Shown here in pieces: positions 1-62,741 of a stretch of DNA of 64,000 nt (its first letter is position 1; the number at the start of each line of letters is the position of its first letter). A program made the translations under genes and the position numbers. Source of the DNA: a virus; IMG/VR virus record IMGVR_UViG_3300024983_000001, positions 72,745-136,744 of that record; one strand, 5' to 3'. The notes under the pieces were generated by a model, which saw only the letters and a program-made list of their open reading frames with translations, was not told the DNA's origin and ran no database searches.

Positions 1-348
1 GGATGGAGAAAAGTTTCCGCCGCCATTACCAACAGAGGAATTTCCACTATCTTTAACGGACGAATTACCACCCGCGACGTTACCTACCGATCCACCTGCT
101 CCACCAATACCAACTCCCACCCCAACTCCAAAGCCGGTTGCGGTCGAACTTGAACTCGATGATGAACTTGAACTCGACGATGAACCATTGGAACCGCCAT
201 TACAACTATTGCCTTGACAATAGTGAGTGTTGGTATGAGTGTTGGTTTTGGTATCACCATGTTTGCCGTTACCGAGGGGTTGGGTTGCGAAAGCCGAGCC
301 GGAGACAAGCATAGCAGCTAATGCAACTGCAAGTAATGTTTTATTCAT
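1..348 (-). CDS. Secreted Gly/Ser-rich protein (continues beyond window start)
   Basis: Not in ORF track. ATG at 348 with AAGGAG SD; MNKTLLAVALAAMLVSGSAFA signal peptide, then poly-Ser and Gly-rich tracts. Confidence 0.85.
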   Translation of the reverse strand, partial: MNKTLLAVALAAMLVSGSAFATQPLGNGKHGDTKTNTHTNTHYCQGNSCNGGSNGSSSSSSSSSSSSSTATGFGVGVGVGIGGAGGSVGNVAGGNSSVKDSGNSSVGNGGGNFSPS

Positions 349-384
349 TTGTAAATCTCCTTTAATTGAAATTAATGGAAGACT

Positions 385-471
385 CACGGTAATTCCCGCT
401 GCCATTGAAGTTACTCTTTAGGCCGGTGAACTTTGTGCCCCAGTCTTTCGAACTGGTATACCCTTTACATG
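385..471 (-). ncRNA. c-di-GMP-I (GEMM) riboswitch aptamer
   Basis: CAUGUAAAGGGUAUACCAGUUCGAAAGACUGGGGCACAAAGUUCACCGGCCUAAAGAGUAACUUCAAUGGCAGCGGGAAUUACCGUG: P1 CAUG/CGUG, GAAA tetraloop, CCUAA..AUGG receptor, residues equivalent to Vc2 G20, A47, C92. Confidence 0.88.
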
Positions 472-524
472 TATTCTTCTTGTTTTACTTACCCTTTCGC
501 GGAATGCAAAAGGACAATATTAAT

Positions 525-553
525 ATTGTATTTCCAATATCTTAAAAAGTCAA
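525..553 (-). promoter_or_regulatory. sigma70-type promoter for the riboswitch-led gene
   Basis: TTGACT-17 bp-TACAAT. Confidence 0.8.
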
Positions 554-1110
554 CAGTCTATAATTGACCACATCTCACTGCTAATATAACTCAACAATTG
601 CTGGAATCTGTTTTCTTTTTGTAGATTAAAAACAGGAATTTTGTAGTCGTCAGCAATTCGTATTGCTTGTCCAGTCCCACCCGTACCAACAGTTGTTTGT
701 GATCCTTGTTCCACACCATCTTGTGTCCAACACACAACTAGTTTAACAGGGTCATTGAGATTGGGACCCAGTACTTGATACCCATTGCGTGCCATAAGTT
801 TTCGTGCAAATGGTGGCAATATTTTCCAAGTGGGGTGATATTTTTCAGCTAAATCAAACGCTTCATCTGTAAGGTTATATAAAGAAGAGGTACTATTGTT
901 AAATCCTCTTGATGGCAGATATATTTCTTTATTCCCACCAAATTGGTCATATGCAATCTCAAACGCCAGGTCGGCGCCGTCGGCGCCACCTGATCGCAAC
1001 ACCCAATTTCTTTTTGCTAACAAAGAAGAAATAGCAATAATCTGTTTAGTTGCGTGTGGAGGTGTAGAACGACTACCTATTCCAGCAAAACTTATAACAC
1101 CGTTACTCAT
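550..1110 (-). CDS. SLOG-superfamily (DprA/Smf-like) nucleotide-binding protein
   Basis: FAGIGSRSTP, LRSGGADGAD, GGTGQAIRIA motifs. Confidence 0.75.
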   Translation of the reverse strand: MSNGVISFAGIGSRSTPPHATKQIIAISSLLAKRNWVLRSGGADGADLAFEIAYDQFGGNKEIYLPSRGFNNSTSSLYNLTDEAFDLAEKYHPTWKILPPFARKLMARNGYQVLGPNLNDPVKLVVCWTQDGVEQGSQTTVGTGGTGQAIRIADDYKIPVFNLQKENRFQQLLSYISSEMWSIIDC

Positions 1111-3831: not shown

Positions 3832-5205
3832 TTACATAGTGCTGTTTGCTCGCACTTCATCGAACGTATATTCCCTAACAATTTTTCCATTAACGAATAC
3901 AGTTTCAAGTGCATCAACCACTCCAGGTGTTTCAATGTCAGAAAAATACCCACCATCTTCACTCTTATACAGAGTAACACGCCCCTTCTTCGACCGCTTG
4001 CCAACATCGGTAACAGGATCCTTATACACATCAACCCAGTTTCCATCAATGCACGCTGCAGACGTTTTCATCGCAAATTTCAAAGTGTCGCGGTTTACCT
4101 GTTGAAGCAGTGCTCCACCCATACCAAAAGCAACGTTGTCAGCACTATATCCAGCAAACTTCAATGTACGAAGAATCGATTTAATGCTACCCTCATTGAT
4201 TCCATCGCCCTGAATAACACGTACTACCGGATTAAGAACTTTATATCCCTTCTCATTCACTGTTGATCCAAATGCAGCATCAAGTGCTCGGACAACCTCA
4301 CACACGACCGAAGCAGGATCACCACTATCGGGGCGAATAACAACAGTAGCACCACTATCAAGCACTTCTTGTTTCAGTTCTTTACCCCACAGATTTGTGA
4401 CGGCATTGAGAATGTCGTACGAATCACTAACAGCCGCAAACATCTTGCCTTTGCCACCAAACTGTTTAATCATGTTGCGGTAAGCATCAACCTCGTTTTT
4501 ACGACCCCACGACGTGTAGGAGCTGTGTTCACCAGCCGGAATCGAGTAACCAGGCATACCAATTGCATTGTAATATTTCTGTGCAAAACGAATACCCGAT
4601 ACAGTGTCCGACCCCATAAAGTTGACCAAGTGGGCAGCGCCGCCAATACCAGCACTTTCAAAGGAACTAACGCCACGGGCGCCAAAATCATGCAGTTTGA
4701 ACGACAGACCTGCAGGATCACCAGTCTCTTCTAATGCTGCACGAATCACTTGCTTGATGCTCCAACTATTGGTAGCAACAGTCGTACCATACCATACAGC
4801 ACGAAGAATTGCAGGCTCGATATACGACGTCAGCCAGAAACATTTGTCGTCAGTGTTTTCAACGGTAACAAGTACGTTTTTTGTACCGAGGACCATACCT
4901 TCAGGAACGGCACGGACAACAAGAGGTAGATAACCAGCGTATTTGTCCACAATATACTGCCATCCGGCTCGGTTAAACGGTTCACCGTGAGCAGCGAAGA
5001 ATTCATCAGCTTCTTCAATCATCTCTTGAGTGACGGGCTTTGTCAGATATTCCTTTAAGAAAATTTGAAGACCGAACATAACGGTTTTGTCATATTCGCC
5101 GCCTCGAGACTCAATGTAAGAGAACACTTTGGTGGTATTGGGTGGATATTGAAGAAAGTGTGATGCTTTGTATGAATCAGTATTAAGAATAATGTTTGTT
5201 TCCAT
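3832..5205 (-). CDS. nadV: Nicotinamide phosphoribosyltransferase (Nampt)
   Basis: TDSYKASH, LHDFGARG, PAGEHS, IRPDSGDP, IQGDG, AFGMGG, RDTLKFAMK motifs. Confidence 0.95.
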   Translation of the reverse strand: METNIILNTDSYKASHFLQYPPNTTKVFSYIESRGGEYDKTVMFGLQIFLKEYLTKPVTQEMIEEADEFFAAHGEPFNRAGWQYIVDKYAGYLPLVVRAVPEGMVLGTKNVLVTVENTDDKCFWLTSYIEPAILRAVWYGTTVATNSWSIKQVIRAALEETGDPAGLSFKLHDFGARGVSSFESAGIGGAAHLVNFMGSDTVSGIRFAQKYYNAIGMPGYSIPAGEHSSYTSWGRKNEVDAYRNMIKQFGGKGKMFAAVSDSYDILNAVTNLWGKELKQEVLDSGATVVIRPDSGDPASVVCEVVRALDAAFGSTVNEKGYKVLNPVVRVIQGDGINEGSIKSILRTLKFAGYSADNVAFGMGGALLQQVNRDTLKFAMKTSAACIDGNWVDVYKDPVTDVGKRSKKGRVTLYKSEDGGYFSDIETPGVVDALETVFVNGKIVREYTFDEVRANSTM

Positions 5206-49446: not shown

Positions 49447-49523
<77 letters not shown>

Positions 49524-59170: not shown

Positions 59171-59247
59171 TGCGGGATGGAGCAGTGGTCAGCTCGCCGG
59201 TCTCATAAGCCGGAGGTCGTTGGTTCGAATCCAACTCCACGCAACCA
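59171..59247 (+). tRNA. tRNA-Met(CAT), initiator-like
   Basis: TGCGGGATGGAGCAG.., CTCATAA loop, CCA; one acceptor bulge. Confidence 0.8.
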
Positions 59248-59499
59248 AGAATTAGTTGGGTAGACGTACCCAAGAAGTAAACGCCAACCATCTTGGGAAC
59301 TAGGTGGTGATCGCAGGGAATCCAGCGTGCGAAAGGTGGCGGGGTAAAAGTCCTCACGAATAGTTCCCCGATATTGAAAAACATTCAATGCGACGTAGGC
59401 TGACAAGCGTCCCCCTGGTCGGATAAGGGTGAGAGTGGTGAAGGTAAGTGGTTAATCTTGCCTTCATACGATTTTTTGTAACCAGTTTTGAAAAATTGG

Positions 59500-59528
59500 T
59501 TGACTTTTATAAATAAGTCATATATAAT
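59500..59528 (+). promoter_or_regulatory. Dual sigma70 + late promoter of tRNA array
   Basis: TTGACT-17 bp-TATAAT with TATAAATA at 59508-59515. Confidence 0.85.
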
Positions 59529-59578
59529 TAATGTAACAATTGAGCAATGTGCTCGAAACCATTTAAGGAATGAATGAA

Positions 59579-59635
59579 ATGTTCACACTGAAGTCAAAAA
59601 GTTATTGTTCCAAACTCTTAGGGGGCTTATCCTAA
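59579..59635 (+). CDS. Attenuator leader peptide MFTLKSKSYCSKLLGGLS
   Basis: AAGGA SD 59565-59569; stop codon overlaps antiterminator strand. Confidence 0.8.
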   Translation: MFTLKSKSYCSKLLGGLS

Positions 59636-59703
59636 CGAGGCGACTTCGTTTGTTCATCCGAAACAGATTACTTCGCCCCGTTAGAAATAGCGGGGCTTTT
59701 TTT
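59618..59703 (+). terminator. Attenuator: 1:2, 2:3 (antiterminator), 3:4 (terminator)
   Basis: TTAGGG/TCCTAA; CTAACGAGGCGA/TCGCCCCGTTAG; GCCCCGTTA-GAAA-TAGCGGGGC-T7. Confidence 0.85.
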
Positions 59704-59715
59704 GTATGTAGTACT

Positions 59716-59731
59716 TGATCTTTTACAATTT
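59716..59731 (+). promoter_or_regulatory. rrn-type boxA-like antitermination site
   Basis: TGATCTTTTACAATTT versus TGCTCTTTAACAATTT. Confidence 0.6.
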
Positions 59732-59741
59732 GAAAATTTAT

Positions 59742-59815
59742 GCGGGTATGATGTAATGGTAGCCTGAAACCTTGCCGAGGTTTATGCCCCAGTTCGATTC
59801 TGGGTACCCGCTCCA
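59742..59815 (+). tRNA. tRNA-Gly(GCC)
   Basis: AAACC-TTGCCGA-GGTTT, TCCA end. Confidence 0.9.
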
Positions 59816-59832
59816 AAGAAGTTCTTTTTGGA

Positions 59833-59908
59833 GACCGTGTGACGAGAATGGTATTCGCCTGGATTGCAAACCCAGAATTCGTCAGTTCGATTCTGACCTC
59901 GGTCTCCA
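59833..59908 (+). tRNA. tRNA-Cys(GCA)
   Basis: TTGCAAA loop, U73, CCA. Confidence 0.85.
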
Positions 59909-59922
59909 AAGTGAATTTAAGG

Positions 59923-59995
59923 GCGTGCGTAGCTCAATTGGTAGAGCGTCTGGCTTCCAACCAGAATGTTGCAGGTTCGATTCCTGTCGCCCGCA
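59923..59995 (+). tRNA. tRNA-Gly(TCC)
   Basis: TCTGG-CTTCCAA-CCAGA; no encoded CCA. Confidence 0.85.
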
Positions 59996-60038
59996 CACAA
60001 TAGTAGAGTTGTCATAAATAGATATAGGAGGAACTATT

Positions 60039-60752
60039 ATGTTCTATTACATCTATCAAATCACCAACTTGGTGAATGGCAAAATCTACGTAGGAGTGCA
60101 CAAAACCGGCAATTTAGATGATGGTTATATGGGCTCTGGAAAAGTTATCAAACGAGCCATAAAGAAATATGGCATTGATAATTTTACAAAAGACGTGCTC
60201 GAATTTTTCGAGAGTGAAGAATTGATGTACGCAAAAGAGAAAGAAGTAGTAACTGAAAACTTTCTTGAGAGAGATGAAGTCTATAATTTACGCAGAGGTG
60301 GTTTGGGAGGATTTGACCATATTAATAAAAATTATGAAGAATTATGTATTCAAAATAGTAGAGCTAGAAAAAACACTGACAAAAAGTTGGAACAAAAATT
60401 AGGTAAGGATTGGAGGTCTGTAATAGGTAAGAAAGCTTCTGAAGCCGCACAACATCCATCCAGTAAAGCAAAACGACGCAAAACATTACTTGATAGAGGA
60501 ATACGGTCTGACGCTAGCTATATGCACACAGCAGAGGTTAATGAAAAAAGGAAACTTGCCTATAAACAAAACGGTCACTCGATCGGTGAAAAAAACTCAC
60601 AATTTGGTACTTGTGTGATAAGTTATCCATCGCTGGGTATAAAAAGAAAACGAATTAAAAAACATCTATTGTGTGAATATATCGATCAAGGTTGGATGTT
60701 AGGTGCCAAGAAGAAAGTATTTGAAATGTTTTATTTGGATGCTCCCCCGTAA
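60039..60752 (+). mobile_element. GIY-YIG homing endonuclease (Seg-like)
   Basis: YYIYQITNLVNGKIYVGVH..YMGSG..YNLRRGG; own ATAAATA promoter and AGGAGG SD. Confidence 0.9.
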
Positions 60753-60822
60753 TGGTATGGGCCCCGGCTGTAACCCGGTGAGCGGCTAGACCGAGTAGGT
60801 TCGATTCCTACAGCATCCACCA
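60737..60822 (+). tRNA. tRNA-Tyr(GTA)
   Basis: CCGG-CTGTAAC-CCGG, long variable arm, ACCA. Confidence 0.8.
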
Positions 60823-60839
60823 GTATTAAAATTTACATT

Positions 60840-60926
60840 GGGTCCATACGCTGCTAAGGACGCAGCCCGGTCTGTAAAACCGTAGCCTTTGTGCGTGGCA
60901 GGGATCGTTACCTGGACGGCGCACCA
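60840..60926 (+). tRNA. Atypical/pseudo tRNA-Tyr(GTA)
   Basis: CGGT-CTGTAAA-ACCG and ACCA, but weak acceptor stem and ATCGTTA T-loop. Confidence 0.5.
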
Positions 60927-60935
60927 GATTATTAT

Positions 60936-61064
60936 CACTGTGCTAGTTTAAAAGGCTAGAACACCTAACCAATAACACTTGTGACGTCCAGGTGTTGAGG
61001 TTCGGCGGGTCGCTCCCGTTTGTACAAAAGGAGGTGTGGGGTCGGTACCCACGCATGGTGTCCA
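60936..61064 (+). ncRNA. tRNA-like RNA with expanded anticodon domain
   Basis: 8-bp acceptor CACTGTGC/GCATGGTG, D- and T-arms, TCCA. Confidence 0.65.
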
Positions 61065-61074
61065 AATTAGTAAT

Positions 61075-61171
61075 GGAGATTGATCCCCCCGTCAGGCGCG
61101 TAACCTGATGTCTCTAAATAAGTCTGGGGGCGAATTAAGACGAGGTGGTTAAACTCCCCCAGTCTCCACCA
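61075..61171 (+). ncRNA. tRNA-like RNA (no canonical D-arm, CGT-loop hairpin)
   Basis: GGAGATTG/CAGTCTCC-ACCA; TCAGG-CGCGTAA-CCTGA. Confidence 0.55.
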
Positions 61172-61172
61172 T

Positions 61173-61247
61173 GTACCGCAAGCATTAATGGTGATGCAAT
61201 AGGCTCTTACCCTTTAGAACACGGATCGTTACCGTGGCGGTGCACCA
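61173..61247 (+). tRNA. tRNA-Lys(CTT)
   Basis: CTCTTAC loop, atypical ATCGTTA T-loop, ACCA. Confidence 0.75.
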
Positions 61248-61259
61248 ACGAATAATTTT

Positions 61260-61336
61260 GGGAGCGATGTCGACTGGGTAGACATCCGGCTTTTAACCGG
61301 AACACAGAGTGGGTTCGATTCCCTCCGCTCCCACCA
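61260..61336 (+). tRNA. tRNA-Lys(TTT)
   Basis: TCCGG-CTTTTAA-CCGGA, ACCA. Confidence 0.85.
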
Positions 61337-61420
61337 AAATTGAAATAGGTATGATCCGCGATACATGCGAAGGGACCCGGCTTGAAAGAGTACAGGTAAA
61401 ACTACAGCGGAAAAATATAT

Positions 61421-61505
61421 GCGTGAGTGGTGGAATGGTATACACGTTGGTCTAAGAAGCCAATGCCCTCGTGGATTGAGAGTTCGAGTCTCTCCTTACG
61501 CACCA
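61421..61505 (+). tRNA. tRNA-Leu(AAG)
   Basis: TTGGT-CTAAGAA-GCCAA, long variable arm, ACCA. Confidence 0.88.
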
Positions 61506-61508
61506 AAT

Positions 61509-61643
61509 ATCGAAGTGATGGGGAATTGGTATACCCTGGTGGTGGAATCATAGTGGGGAGCCCTGGGGAGCCAGGTAAGCGAAAGCGGTAACCCTTCCAA
61601 CAAACCGCAGCTTGTGTGGGTTCGAATCCCACCTTCGGTACCA
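61509..61643 (+). ncRNA. tRNA-like RNA with expanded anticodon domain
   Basis: ATCGAAG/CTTCGGT-ACCA, D-arm GGG-AATTGGTATA-CCC, GTGGGTTCGAATCCCAC. Confidence 0.7.
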
Positions 61644-61683
61644 GATAAGGAGGGCTCGAGTCCATGTCTCCTCCGCAAGTTAT

Positions 61684-61773
61684 GGAAGACGGGCAGGATG
61701 GTAATGCAGCGGATTGCTAATCCGTAGGCCCATTTACGTGGGTCACAGGGTTCGATTCCCTGGTCTTCCGCCA
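61684..61773 (+). tRNA. tRNA-Ser(GCT)
   Basis: GCGGA-TTGCTAA-TCCGT, long arm, GCCA. Confidence 0.9.
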
Positions 61774-61776
61774 TAT

Positions 61777-61874
61777 TTGACTGTGTTGTAATGGTAGCAA
61801 GGGGAAGTCCGAGGCGTGATGAGCGAAGTAGGCAACCAAATGCCCCCGAGGTGGTTCAATTCCACCCAGTCGAA
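61777..61874 (+). ncRNA. tRNA-like RNA with enlarged anticodon loop
   Basis: TTGACTG/CAGTCGA, D-arm, GGGG..CCCC, GGTGGTTCAATTCCACC. Confidence 0.6.
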
Positions 61875-61886
61875 TGAATAAGTTAT

Positions 61887-61965
61887 GCCCCTGTAGGCCA
61901 ATTAGGTAGAGTCGGTGGATTTAAAATCCATTTATGTGTCGGTTCGAATCCGACCAGGGGTACCA
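61887..61965 (+). tRNA. tRNA-Leu(TAA), short variable arm
   Basis: GTGGA-TTTAAAA-TCCAT, ACCA. Confidence 0.85.
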
Positions 61966-62096
61966 TATTAAAACACATCACCCTACCCAACGGGTGATAG
62001 ACAGTGGTTGGAAGGATCTATCCGTGTATTGGATTGCCGATGGAAGCTCCCGGGTTGCACCGGTGCCAAAGGACCCAATCGTGGTGTGTTTTAATA
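61966..62096 (+). ncRNA. Unknown structured RNA
   Basis: 16-bp closing stem TATTAAAACACATCAC/GTGGTGTGTTTTAATA. Confidence 0.6.
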
Positions 62097-62097
62097 T

Positions 62098-62193
62098 GGA
62101 GATGTTAGCCGAGTTGGCCTAGCGGCGGCTGTCTTGAAAACAGAGGGCCTGGTGTCCCCAGGTGTGTGAGTTCGAGTCTCACCTTCTCCGCCA
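62098..62193 (+). tRNA. tRNA-Ser(TGA)
   Basis: CTGT-CTTGAAA-ACAG, long arm, GCCA. Confidence 0.88.
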
Positions 62194-62305
62194 TATTTTT
62201 GTAGTCCATCCCAGGTGATGGGTAAATGGTGTTGCGAGCAGGTAATGCTGCTGATAAAGATCGAAGCGCAACTTAATAGGATTGTGTTCCACCTACTACA
62301 GCAAT

Positions 62306-62385
62306 GCCCGGGTACGCAATTTTGGTAAAGCGGCCTTCCTCAAAAGTAGGTGATTTTGTCAGTTCGACTCTGATCCCGGGTACCA
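62306..62385 (+). tRNA. tRNA-Leu(CAA), short variable arm
   Basis: CCTTC-CTCAAAA-GTAGG, ACCA. Confidence 0.75.
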
Positions 62386-62453
62386 AACAACATGCTGTGT
62401 ATCAGTCATAAGATGATGCGTAGTGCCACCGGGCAACCCCGTGGGTGGTGATT

Positions 62454-62530
62454 GCCCCCGTAGGCCAATTGGTAGAGTCACATGCCTTAGGAGCATGTCA
62501 GTGTCAGTTCGAATCTGACCGGGGGTACCA
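62454..62530 (+). tRNA. tRNA-Leu(TAG), short variable arm
   Basis: CATGC-CTTAGGA-GCATG, ACCA. Confidence 0.85.
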
Positions 62531-62542
62531 GATATTAGCAAC

Positions 62543-62619
62543 GCCCAGGTAGCGCAATCGGTAGAGGCAATAGATTCAAAACCTATTTAGTGTGGGTTCG
62601 AATCCCACCCTGGGCACCA
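62543..62619 (+). tRNA. tRNA-Leu(CAA), short variable arm
   Basis: ATAGA-TTCAAAA-CCTAT, ACCA. Confidence 0.8.
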
Positions 62620-62625
62620 AACAAC

Positions 62626-62741
62626 GCAAGCGTGGTGGAATGGTATACACTCTGGTCTTGTGCAGAGTATCTGCTAAAGCGGGTACTCGACAGAAGCCAG
62701 CGCCGTGAGGATTGAGAGTTCGAGTCTCTCCGCTTGCACCA
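62626..62741 (+). tRNA. tRNA-Leu (CAG or TAG) with 32-nt anticodon-loop insertion
   Basis: Body nearly identical to Leu(AAG) at 61421; hairpin insert 62659-62690. Confidence 0.8.

What the first reader, a model, noticed from the sequence alone, without database searches (positions are those of the whole stretch)
1..553. Phage-borne c-di-GMP-I riboswitch controlling a secreted Gly/Ser-rich protein
Seen: a sigma70 promoter, a ~170-nt leader containing a GEMM-I aptamer (385-471) with G at the position equivalent to Vc2 G20, then SD and a signal-peptide gene. Established: G20 favours c-di-GMP and A20 favours 3',3'-cGAMP. Riboswitches are rare in phages. Inference: the phage reads the host's biofilm/motility second messenger to time export of a low-complexity surface or matrix protein. 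No terminator lies between aptamer and SD, so control may be translational.
Basis: partly seen in the sequence, partly recalled or inferred. Interest (0 to 1): 0.8.

Follow-up and report, generated by a model that had tools for sequence, protein, structure and literature searches.

The report
c-di-GMP riboswitch in a jumbo phage
A large T4-type phage carries a genuine RNA switch for the bacterial signal c-di-GMP in front of genes for secreted cell-envelope proteins, and it also encodes its own enzyme for making that signal, so it may run a private signalling loop inside the infected cell.

Summary
Rfam's c-di-GMP-I model matches window 472-385 (minus strand) over its full length at 57.5 bits (cut-off 35). 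It is the only copy in the 257 kb virus record.

- **Layout:** a sigma70-like promoter lies 53 nt upstream. There is no terminator before the Shine-Dalgarno (SD) sequence, and a signal-peptide gene starts at 348.
- **Phage:** the record is a jumbo phage with a T4-type capsid.
- **Cargo:** the gene is not just low-complexity. It ends in a conserved four-cysteine domain and is followed by a second secreted protein. After an internal terminator come a minimal L,D-transpeptidase and a lipoprotein. The first two genes are neighbours in 40 of 41 viral and 66 of 80 bacterial loci, all uncharacterised.
- **Recurrence:** the riboswitch heads this cassette in three other jumbo-phage fragments.
- **Mechanism (inferred):** in all four loci a hairpin masks the SD and shares bases with aptamer helix P1. 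This predicts translational switching, probably ON with c-di-GMP.
- **Own cyclase:** the same phage encodes an intact PAS-GGDEF diguanylate cyclase 138 kb away, so the signal may be phage-made. This rests on one genome.

The papers found report c-di-GMP-I riboswitches only in Clostridioides difficile prophages. An unchecked note from this scan reports a similar riboswitch-plus-GGDEF pairing in another phage genome.

The parts
525..553 (-). Sigma70-like promoter, TTGACT-17-TACAAT. The -35 hexamer overlaps the stop codon of the upstream DprA-like gene.
   Evidence: 10 of 12 matches. L004 has TTGACA-17-TATACT (11 of 12) at the equivalent distance from its aptamer. Consensus match only; not statistically enriched in this region.
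493..513 (-). Hairpin near the 5' end of the predicted transcript (CCUUUUGC...GCGAAAGG). No U-tract follows it.
   Evidence: Minimum-free-energy (MFE) fold. Function not tested.
385..472 (-). c-di-GMP-I (GEMM-I) aptamer. GAAA tetraloop hairpin plus receptor hairpin. The G20 equivalent is G462 and the C92 equivalent is C389.
   Evidence: RF01051, 57.5 bits against cut-off 35, E = 1.3e-8, full model. Confirmed.
468..479 (-). 5' strand of P1 (core CAUG at 471-468), extended into a purine-rich stretch (GAAGAA) that can pair with the anti-SD.
   Evidence: The duplex with 388-378 is predicted at -6.3 to -6.9 kcal/mol. Equivalent helices with different sequences occur in L004, L005 and L023.
378..388 (-). 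3' strand of P1 (core CGUG at 388-385) running into the anti-SD sequence (GUCUUC). It is shared between P1 and the SD-masking hairpin.
351..387 (-). SD-masking hairpin (GUGAGUCU.CC.UUAAU / AUUAA.GG.AGAUUUAC). It pairs four of the five AGGAG bases.
   Evidence: -12.0 kcal/mol when folded alone. Forcing the SD unpaired costs 9.8 kcal/mol.
357..361 (-). Shine-Dalgarno sequence AGGAG, 8 nt before the ATG.
   Evidence: Sequence.
1..348 (-). 5' part of the P0001 gene (248 aa in full). It continues 399 nt beyond the window start, to G000:C1:72346. It has a signal peptide, a Ser/Gly-rich linker and a conserved C-terminal four-cysteine domain.
   Evidence: Downstream, outside the window, are P0002 (131 aa, secreted), an intrinsic terminator, P0003 (YkuD fold), a 146-aa lipoprotein and a second terminator.

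Best explanation
This is a functional c-di-GMP-I riboswitch in the leader of a jumbo-phage operon for periplasm-targeted proteins. It most likely acts on translation.

**Proposed mechanism**
- Without ligand, a hairpin directly 3' of the aptamer pairs the Shine-Dalgarno sequence with an anti-SD (GUCUUC).
- The anti-SD is contiguous with the 3' strand of aptamer helix P1.
- When c-di-GMP binds, P1 is stabilised. P1 can extend so that a purine-rich 5' leader segment captures the anti-SD.
- The masking hairpin then loses its base, and ribosomes can start on P0001. P0002 follows 28 nt downstream.
- An intrinsic terminator after P0002 limits expression of the L,D-transpeptidase and the lipoprotein to read-through.

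**Source of the signal:** c-di-GMP can come from the host. It can also come from the phage's own PAS-GGDEF cyclase, which sits behind a near-consensus sigma70 promoter.

**Shown:** the aptamer, the gene order, the competing helices, the YkuD fold and the intact cyclase motifs.

**Inferred:** the ON direction, the ligand, the operon's envelope function and any link between the cyclase and the switch.
For: **Aptamer**
- Full-length RF01051 hit well above the cut-off.
- G at the G20-equivalent position in all four phage aptamers. PMC6140456 describes G20 contacting one guanine of the ligand and C92 pairing with the other. It reports picomolar c-di-GMP affinity against 10 uM for cGAMP in wild-type Vc2.

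**Conservation**
- The same riboswitch heads the same cassette in three other jumbo-phage contigs: L004 at 64.2 bits, L005 at 58.2 and L023 at 34.9.
- Paired positions change on both sides. The second pair of the first hairpin is U-A in G000 and C-G in L004. The fourth stem pair is G-C in G000 and A-U in L004. L023 differs at several pairs of the second hairpin.

**Expression platform**
- No terminator in the leader.
- In all four loci the MFE fold masks the SD in a hairpin whose 5' arm overlaps the P1 3' strand, although the sequences differ.
- Enforcing P1 raises mean SD unpaired probability from 0.20 to 0.41 in G000, 0.016 to 0.585 in L004 and 0.02 to 0.50 in L005.
- Imposing P1 costs 6-11 kcal/mol. 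This is within the binding energy implied by picomolar to nanomolar affinity.

**Operon**
- Gaps of 28, 9 and 9 nt between open reading frames as listed, all on one strand.
- Terminators after P0002 and after the lipoprotein gene.

**Cyclase**
- PF00990 at 143 bits plus PAS domains.
- GGDEF and RxxD are invariant across seven homologs.
- A terminator and then TTGACT-17-TATAAT precede its operon.
Against: - No experiment supports any of this. The ON direction rests on nearest-neighbour energy models.
- By a stricter measure (at least 4 of 5 SD bases free in sampled structures), enforcing P1 raises accessibility only from about 0.001 to 0.01-0.045 in G000, L004 and L005. Weaker local pairings replace the hairpin.
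- The junction-proximal P1 core is short: 4 pairs in G000, 3 in L004 and L005, and 2 in L023.
- Only three independent lineages exist, because L004 and L005 are nearly identical. L023's aptamer scores just under the Rfam cut-off.
- The promoter match is not above chance in its region. Read-through from the upstream same-strand genes is possible.
- Riboswitch and cyclase are seen together in one genome only. The three other riboswitch contigs are 5-12% fragments without a GGDEF gene. Two other jumbo phages have GGDEF but no riboswitch.
Confidence: 0.6

Rival explanations
1. It is a working c-di-GMP riboswitch of the opposite polarity, or it acts by another route. Ligand binding might favour SD masking, Rho-dependent termination or mRNA decay, so that high c-di-GMP turns the operon OFF.
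For: With P1 enforced, sampled structures still keep most SD bases paired in G000, L004 and L005, so the thermodynamic argument for ON is weak in absolute terms. From my own knowledge, natural c-di-GMP-I riboswitches include both ON and OFF examples (Vc1 and Vc2 of Vibrio cholerae). PMC9262584 describes homologous cyclic-dinucleotide aptamers acting as ON or OFF switches.
Against: In every locus the strand that P1 needs is the strand the masking hairpin needs. Stabilising P1 can therefore only weaken the mask. No terminator is present. No helix was found that the ligand-free aptamer could use to hold the anti-SD away from the SD.
Confidence: 0.2
2. One reading: the phage simply monitors the host's own c-di-GMP level (biofilm versus motile state). 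It uses this to decide when to export a low-complexity surface or matrix protein. The phage cyclase is unrelated, for example a device that manipulates host motility or phage receptors.
For: The three other riboswitch-bearing contigs show no GGDEF gene, though they are small fragments. Two jumbo phages have GGDEF genes without a riboswitch, so the two parts can exist apart. The cyclase lies 138 kb from the switch.
Against: In G000 both parts are present and intact, and no EAL, HD-GYP or PilZ protein was found. The riboswitch is therefore the only recognisable phage-encoded c-di-GMP reader. The cargo is a conserved envelope cassette rather than a plain low-complexity protein.
Confidence: 0.3
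3. The aptamer is a passively carried or decaying piece of host DNA with no regulatory role in the phage.
For: Riboswitches are rare in phages (PMC5473149). L023's copy scores 34.9 bits, just under the cut-off. Bacterial homologs of the cassette in the genomes checked are not preceded by the riboswitch.
Against: The aptamer keeps its full length, its contact nucleotides, its tetraloop and its position before the same cassette in three diverged phage lineages. Changes at paired positions are compensatory, and the platform architecture is re-created with different sequences.
Confidence: 0.05
4. The aptamer senses a different cyclic dinucleotide, such as the 3',3'-cGAMP made by CBASS defence systems. 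The operon would then respond to host immunity.
For: GEMM-I aptamers can be retuned to cGAMP by one base (PMC6140456). Phages do meet cGAMP-producing defences (own knowledge).
Against: All four phage aptamers carry G, not A, at the discriminating position. Wild-type Vc2 with G20 binds cGAMP about a million-fold more weakly than c-di-GMP (PMC6140456).
Confidence: 0.04

Closest known systems
Vibrio cholerae Vc1/Vc2 and other bacterial c-di-GMP-I (GEMM-I, RF01051) riboswitches
   Same: Same aptamer family by covariance model. It has a GAAA tetraloop hairpin and a receptor hairpin, G at the G20 position, C at the C92 position, an enclosing P1 helix and a 5'-UTR position before genes for secreted or envelope proteins.
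   Different: It is encoded by a T4-type jumbo phage rather than a bacterium. The cargo is an uncharacterised phage-enriched cassette. The platform is a short SD-masking hairpin that shares bases with P1, with no terminator.
c-di-GMP-I riboswitches in Clostridioides difficile prophages (Sudarsan et al. 2008, as cited in PMC5473149; see also PMC7699646)
   Same: A c-di-GMP-I aptamer carried on phage DNA.
   Different: Those are temperate prophages of a Gram-positive host. This one is in a jumbo phage of about 330-346 kb with a T4-type capsid. Its cassette relatives sit in phages of Proteobacteria. It recurs in related phage contigs and coexists with a phage-encoded diguanylate cyclase.
Phage-encoded GGDEF proteins (annotated in various phages; earlier scan note e1-1969294)
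   Same: A phage gene for a probable diguanylate cyclase with an intact GGDEF motif.
   Different: Here the cyclase has a PAS sensor and an RxxD inhibitory site, and the same genome holds a c-di-GMP riboswitch that could read its product. I found no paper describing such a pairing.
YkuD-type L,D-transpeptidases (B. subtilis YkuD, M. tuberculosis LdtMt1/2, Bdellovibrio Bd1075)
   Same: The P0003 model (pLDDT 90) matches these folds at Foldseek probability 1.00. The His and Cys of the H...GC motif are invariant in 33 homologs.
   Different: It is a minimal domain of about 115 aa with an N-terminal hydrophobic segment and no LysM or other peptidoglycan-binding domain. Its Pfam score is below the cut-off. 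It sits behind an internal terminator in a phage operon.

Membership tests
c-di-GMP-I riboswitch (Rfam RF01051) | Covariance-model score at or above the curated gathering score, over the whole model | tested here: met
   57.5 bits against 35, model positions 1-87 of 87, E = 1.3e-8. Repeated.
c-di-GMP-I riboswitch (Rfam RF01051) | Two hairpins, with a GNRA tetraloop on the first and a tetraloop-receptor-like internal loop (CCUAA...AUGG) on the second | tested here: met
   The alignment shows UUCGAAAGA (a GAAA loop), then GGCCUAAAG...AAUGGC. No non-canonical pair is flagged. The MFE folds reproduce both hairpins. That this loop is the receptor is from my own knowledge.
c-di-GMP-I riboswitch (Rfam RF01051) | Ligand-contact nucleotides: G at Vc2 position 20 and C at position 92 | tested here: met
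   G462 (model position 11) and C389 (first C of ACC after the second hairpin). The roles of G20 and C92 are from PMC6140456. The mapping of Vc2 numbers onto model positions is from my own knowledge.
c-di-GMP-I riboswitch (Rfam RF01051) | P1 helix closing the three-way junction | tested here: met
   CAUG (471-468) pairs with CGUG (388-385), plus an extension. L004 and L005 use UUCUUG/CUGGAA and L023 uses a longer helix, so both strands differ between lineages.
c-di-GMP-I riboswitch (Rfam RF01051) | Binds c-di-GMP and changes expression of the downstream gene | not testable with these tools
   Needs in-line probing or ITC, and a reporter assay.
YkuD L,D-transpeptidase (Pfam PF03734), for P0003 | Sequence score above the Pfam cut-off | tested here: not met
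   16.5 bits against 23.4, E = 0.013. A profile search of PDB sequences gives YkuD as the top hit but only at E = 0.39.
YkuD L,D-transpeptidase (Pfam PF03734), for P0003 | YkuD fold with the catalytic His and Cys (H...GC motif) | tested here: met
   AlphaFold model with pLDDT 90 and pTM 0.83. The top Foldseek hits are YkuD, Ldt and Bd1075 structures, E = 2e-6 and below, probability 1.00. H68 and C97 are invariant in 33 sequences.
GGDEF diguanylate cyclase (Pfam PF00990), for the phage PAS-GGDEF protein | Domain score above the cut-off, an intact GG[DE]EF active-site motif and metal-binding Asp residues | tested here: met
   143.1 bits against 23.8, plus PAS_9 at 59.7 bits. RLGGDEF, IDLD and the RxxD inhibitory site are invariant in seven homologs. 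Enzyme activity was not tested.

The most novel reading that the evidence does not exclude
The phage runs a self-contained c-di-GMP circuit. An early-expressed, PAS-gated phage diguanylate cyclase raises c-di-GMP in the infected cell. The phage's own riboswitch reads that rise and switches on translation of a periplasmic cassette: two unknown secreted proteins, then by read-through a minimal L,D-transpeptidase and a lipoprotein. The cassette would remodel or reinforce the host envelope during the long jumbo-phage infection, or exclude superinfecting phages. This would be a virus-encoded pair of second-messenger writer and RNA reader.
Probability: 0.3. Interest if true: 0.85.

Novelty: new member of a known kind. 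Interest (0 to 1): 0.62.

Why it matters
Riboswitches are considered very rare in phages. The 2017 survey (PMC5473149) lists only two c-di-GMP-I examples, both in C. difficile prophages, plus two glutamine aptamers in cyanophages.

This finding adds several things:
- A clear case in a T4-type jumbo phage, where the riboswitch is conserved with its cargo across related phages.
- A simple and directly testable translational design.
- A regulatory handle on an abundant phage and prophage gene pair of unknown function: P0001-P0002, with 606 homologs and no Pfam family.
- A phage L,D-transpeptidase, which points to envelope remodelling during infection.

Together with the phage's own PAS-GGDEF cyclase, the finding makes it directly testable whether viruses use bacterial second messengers as internal regulatory signals, and not only as targets.

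Tried and rejected
**Tools and searches that gave nothing**
I could not inspect the contigs of the closest P0001 homologs (P0005, P0010) or of the cyclase homologs on contigs of 343-346 kb (P0124, P0127).
- Megablast and blastn of the region against 50,697 phage records found nothing.
- A single-sequence scan of viral contigs for P0001, and one for the cyclase, found nothing. The capsid scan found only one distant relative, which has no riboswitch.
- A profile scan for the cyclase returned only matches of 39% identity or less.
- The DNA pattern for the phage-type aptamer found only L004 and L005 again in viral contigs.
- In metagenomes the pattern found five bacterial-type c-di-GMP-I riboswitches with no cassette genes nearby.

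**Function of the cassette proteins**
- The P0001 C-terminal domain gave a poor model (pLDDT 57), so I did not run a fold search on it.
- PDB sequence searches, Pfam, NCBIfam, PHROGs and the ESM Atlas gave only 'unknown function' for P0001 and P0002.
- The neighbours of the cassette in a Comamonas provirus and in cultured phages were uninformative.

**Ideas tested and rejected**
- I tested whether bacterial copies of the cassette carry the riboswitch. In the 27 genomes searched, seven have RF01051: six Oxalobacteraceae and one uncultured betaproteobacterium. All hits lie at other loci. The Comamonadaceae genomes (Polaromonas, Variovorax, Comamonas and relatives) among them had none.
- I tested whether cultured relatives (RsoM2USA, RAS14, XacN1, phiRSL1, JWDelta) have the riboswitch or a GGDEF gene. 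None has either.

**Method limits**
- The MAFFT alignment of the four aptamers misplaces L023, so I made no formal pair count. Compensatory changes are read from the cmscan alignments instead.
- I considered a transcription-terminator mechanism and rejected it, because no terminator lies in the leader.

Full report

A covariance-model scan of the whole 64 kb window against all 4227 Rfam families gives one riboswitch hit. It is RF01051 (c-di-GMP-I) at 385-472 on the minus strand. It scores 57.5 bits against a gathering score of 35, with E = 1.3e-8, and covers model positions 1-87 of 87. The alignment flags no non-canonical pair. It shows the GAAA tetraloop hairpin and the second hairpin with a CCUAA...AUGG internal loop.

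The window is bases 72745-136744 of a 257,054 bp IMG/VR virus record, which CheckV estimates as 78% complete. The aptamer is the only copy in that record.

Reading the minus strand gives this layout:

| Feature | Window coordinates |
|---|---|
| Promoter TTGACT-17-TACAAT | 553-525 |
| Small 5' hairpin | 513-493 |
| Aptamer | 472-385 |
| SD GGAG | 360-357 |
| ATG | 348-346 |

No terminator-like site lies in between.

The promoter match alone is not above chance in that region (3 sites found, 3.7 expected). However, a relative has TTGACA-17-TATACT at the same distance from its aptamer.

**2. Is it a phage?**

The record encodes a T4-type Gp23 major capsid protein at 150 bits. Its nearest cultured relatives are jumbo myoviruses of 310-385 kb at only 35-39% identity. 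They are Stenotrophomonas phages CM1 and RAS14, Xanthomonas phages XacN1 and Xoo-sp13, Ralstonia phage RsoM2USA and the GAP32 group.

The riboswitch operon is flanked by phage-type genes. Upstream is a DprA-like gene (phrog_768). Downstream are convergent large structural-looking genes. I saw no sign of a chimeric assembly.

**3. What is regulated?**

The gene runs off the window. In the full record it encodes P0001, 248 aa. It has three parts:
- a Sec-type signal peptide;
- a Ser/Gly/Asn-rich linker;
- a conserved C-terminal domain of about 90 residues with four invariant cysteines (…SSNDTCMGS…DKNC…KNSRE[LM]WNMG…MC…CP).

It has 606 homologs and no Pfam domain. PHROGs lists the family as phrog_20531, unknown function.

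Three more genes follow on the same strand:

| Gene | Length | Description | Evidence |
|---|---|---|---|
| P0002 | 131 aa | Second secreted protein | |
| P0003 | 120 aa as listed; probably starts at its eighth codon, ATG | L,D-transpeptidase fold | |
| Lipoprotein | 146 aa | LLTGC lipobox | |

For P0003, the model has pLDDT 90, and its top Foldseek hits are YkuD, LdtMt and Bd1075 structures at probability 1.00. The H...GC catalytic residues are invariant in 33 homologs.

The gaps between the open reading frames as listed are 28, 9 and 9 nt.

Directly after the P0002 stop codon the minus strand reads AAAGGGGGGUUGCCCCCUUUUUAU. This is a textbook intrinsic terminator, 12 nt before the likely ATG of P0003. 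A second strong hairpin follows the lipoprotein gene, between convergent genes.

The tightly controlled unit is therefore P0001 plus P0002. The transpeptidase and the lipoprotein would be reached by read-through.

**4. Comparative evidence**

The P0001 domain occurs in 41 IMG/VR loci, many of them jumbo phages and some Comamonas-type proviruses. It also occurs in 80 loci in bacterial genomes, nearly all of them Burkholderiales. Cultured phages with the domain include pelagiphages, phiRSL1, RsoM2USA and N4-like Achromobacter phages.

A P0002 homolog follows P0001 immediately in 40 of 41 viral loci and 66 of 80 genome loci. The YkuD-like gene follows in 26 viral and 12 genome loci. This is a widespread, uncharacterised, phage-enriched envelope cassette.

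Only three of the 41 viral records carry RF01051:

| Locus | Score (bits) |
|---|---|
| L004 | 64.2 |
| L005 | 58.2 |
| L023 | 34.9 |

All three are fragments covering 5-12% of phages estimated at about 330-350 kb. In each, the aptamer heads the cassette. There, however, a 260-290 aa secreted low-complexity protein comes first and the P0001-family gene second. In L023 a terminator again follows the P0002 homolog.

Bacterial copies of the cassette are not riboswitch-controlled. In the 27 genomes searched, seven have RF01051: six Oxalobacteraceae and one uncultured betaproteobacterium. All hits lie at other loci. The Comamonadaceae genomes among them had none.

Five cultured phages that are nearest by capsid or that carry the cassette have no RF01051.

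**5. How the switch probably works**

All four aptamers have G at the position I equate with Vc2 G20 (G462 here) and C at the C92 position (C389). PMC6140456 describes these as the contacts to the two guanines of the ligand. It reports picomolar c-di-GMP affinity against 10 uM for cGAMP in wild-type Vc2. The ligand is therefore most likely c-di-GMP.

In every locus the unconstrained MFE fold places the SD in a hairpin directly 3' of the aptamer:
- In G000 the hairpin spans 387-351 and is worth -12.0 kcal/mol alone. Forcing the SD open costs 9.8 kcal/mol.
- Its 5' arm (GUGAGUCU…) is the same RNA as the P1 3' strand (CGUGAGU) plus the anti-SD.
- P1 (CAUG/CGUG) can extend so that a purine-rich 5' leader piece (GAAGAA) pairs with the anti-SD.

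L004 and L005 re-create this design with UUCUUG/CUGGAA, AGAA/UUCU and a different hairpin. L023 uses yet another set of sequences. Three lineages thus keep two mutually exclusive helices while changing their sequences.

Enforcing P1 has these effects:
- Mean SD unpaired probability rises from 0.20 to 0.41 in G000, 0.016 to 0.585 in L004 and 0.02 to 0.50 in L005.
- The cost is 6-11 kcal/mol, within what a picomolar-to-nanomolar ligand could pay.
- By a stricter sampled measure the rise is from about 0.001 to 0.01-0.045, and to about 0.3 in L023.

The direction (ON with c-di-GMP) is therefore consistent across loci, but the magnitude is not established. Translational control also makes sense here, because read-through from the upstream same-strand genes would bypass a promoter-level control.

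**6. The phage makes the ligand itself?**

Searching the record for c-di-GMP enzymes found one GGDEF protein at G000:C1:211395-212318, about 138 kb from the switch and outside the window.
- It is a 307-aa PAS-GGDEF protein, with PF00990 at 143 bits and PAS_9 at 60 bits.
- RLGGDEF, the IDLD metal site and an RxxD inhibitory site are all invariant in seven homologs.
- Homologs at 52-69% identity exist. One lies on a 343,399 bp contig, and the identical protein lies on a 346,032 bp contig. Beyond these, identity falls to 43% or less. It therefore looks like a lineage-specific phage gene.
- Its operon starts after a strong terminator with TTGACT-17-TATAAT. The operon's first gene encodes a secreted glycine-zipper protein.
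- No EAL, HD-GYP or PilZ protein was found in the 257 kb held.

The riboswitch is thus the only recognisable phage-encoded reader of the cyclase's product.

This co-occurrence rests on one genome. The other three riboswitch contigs are too short to judge. Two jumbo phages have GGDEF without the riboswitch. Five cultured relatives have neither.

**7. Comparison with what is known**

Membership in RF01051 is met on every computable criterion; ligand binding cannot be tested here.

In the literature held, phage-borne c-di-GMP-I riboswitches are known only from C. difficile prophages (PMC5473149, citing Sudarsan et al. 2008; PMC7699646). My searches for phage riboswitches and for phage diguanylate cyclases found no description of a jumbo-phage c-di-GMP riboswitch, or of a phage pairing one with its own cyclase.

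Earlier unchecked notes of this scan saw the cyclase in this genome. They also flagged a similar riboswitch-plus-GGDEF pairing in another phage genome.

**8. Verdict**

This is a real c-di-GMP-I riboswitch, and a new member of a known class in an unusual carrier. It is conserved with an uncharacterised envelope cassette and probably acts as a translational ON switch.

The most novel reading still open is a phage-internal c-di-GMP circuit of cyclase, riboswitch and envelope operon. I put it at about 30%.

That prevented the most direct comparative test.

Noticed in passing
G000:C1:211395-212318 (+), outside the window (about 74.6 kb beyond its end); L149:1096-2019: Intact phage-encoded PAS-GGDEF diguanylate cyclase, 307 aa, with GGDEF and RxxD conserved. 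Homologs at 52-69% identity lie on other contigs, one of 343 kb. The identical protein is also on a 346 kb contig.
   Followed up: yes
L187:3473-4058 (G000:C1:209472-210057): The cyclase operon starts with a strong terminator hairpin and a near-consensus TTGACT-17-TATAAT promoter. Its first gene encodes a 159-aa secreted protein with a glycine-zipper segment. A QueD-like ORF and a 271-aa unknown ORF lie between that gene and the cyclase.
   Followed up: partly
L148:5157-5179 and L148:4326-4353 (just before the window start): Two intrinsic terminators on the operon strand. One lies between the P0002 stop and the P0003 start. The other follows the lipoprotein gene, between convergent genes, and looks bidirectional.
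   Followed up: partly
L003-L123 (viral and bacterial loci): The P0001-P0002 pair, often with the minimal YkuD-like gene, is a widespread uncharacterised cassette of secreted proteins. It occurs in jumbo phages, N4-like phages, pelagiphages and Burkholderiales prophages or chromosomes, with several copies per Comamonas genome.
   Followed up: partly
window 550-1110 (-): 186-aa DprA-like / SLOG-type protein (phrog_768, E = 8e-52). Its stop codon overlaps the -35 hexamer of the riboswitch promoter.
   Followed up: no
window 49450-49523 (-) and 59172-62738 (+): Twelve tRNA genes by Rfam, eleven of them in one array at 59.2-62.7 kb.
   Followed up: no
window 3832-5205 (-): 457-aa ORF that looks like nicotinamide phosphoribosyltransferase. 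Earlier scan notes describe it as part of an NAD-salvage cluster. I did not check it here.
   Followed up: no
L004:1-1320: In the related phage contig the gene upstream of the riboswitch is adenylosuccinate-synthase-like and appears to carry an inserted segment (possibly an intein). An NAD-kinase-like gene follows the cassette there. In G000 an NAD-kinase-like ORF lies a few kb beyond the cassette on the same strand (L148:305-1204).
   Followed up: no
L134-L143 (Oxalobacteraceae genomes): Noviherbaspirillum, Actimicrobium and IMCC9480 genomes each carry 2-3 c-di-GMP-I riboswitches. The Comamonadaceae genomes searched (Polaromonas, Variovorax, Comamonas and relatives) had none. This is a weak hint towards the host group.
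   Followed up: partly
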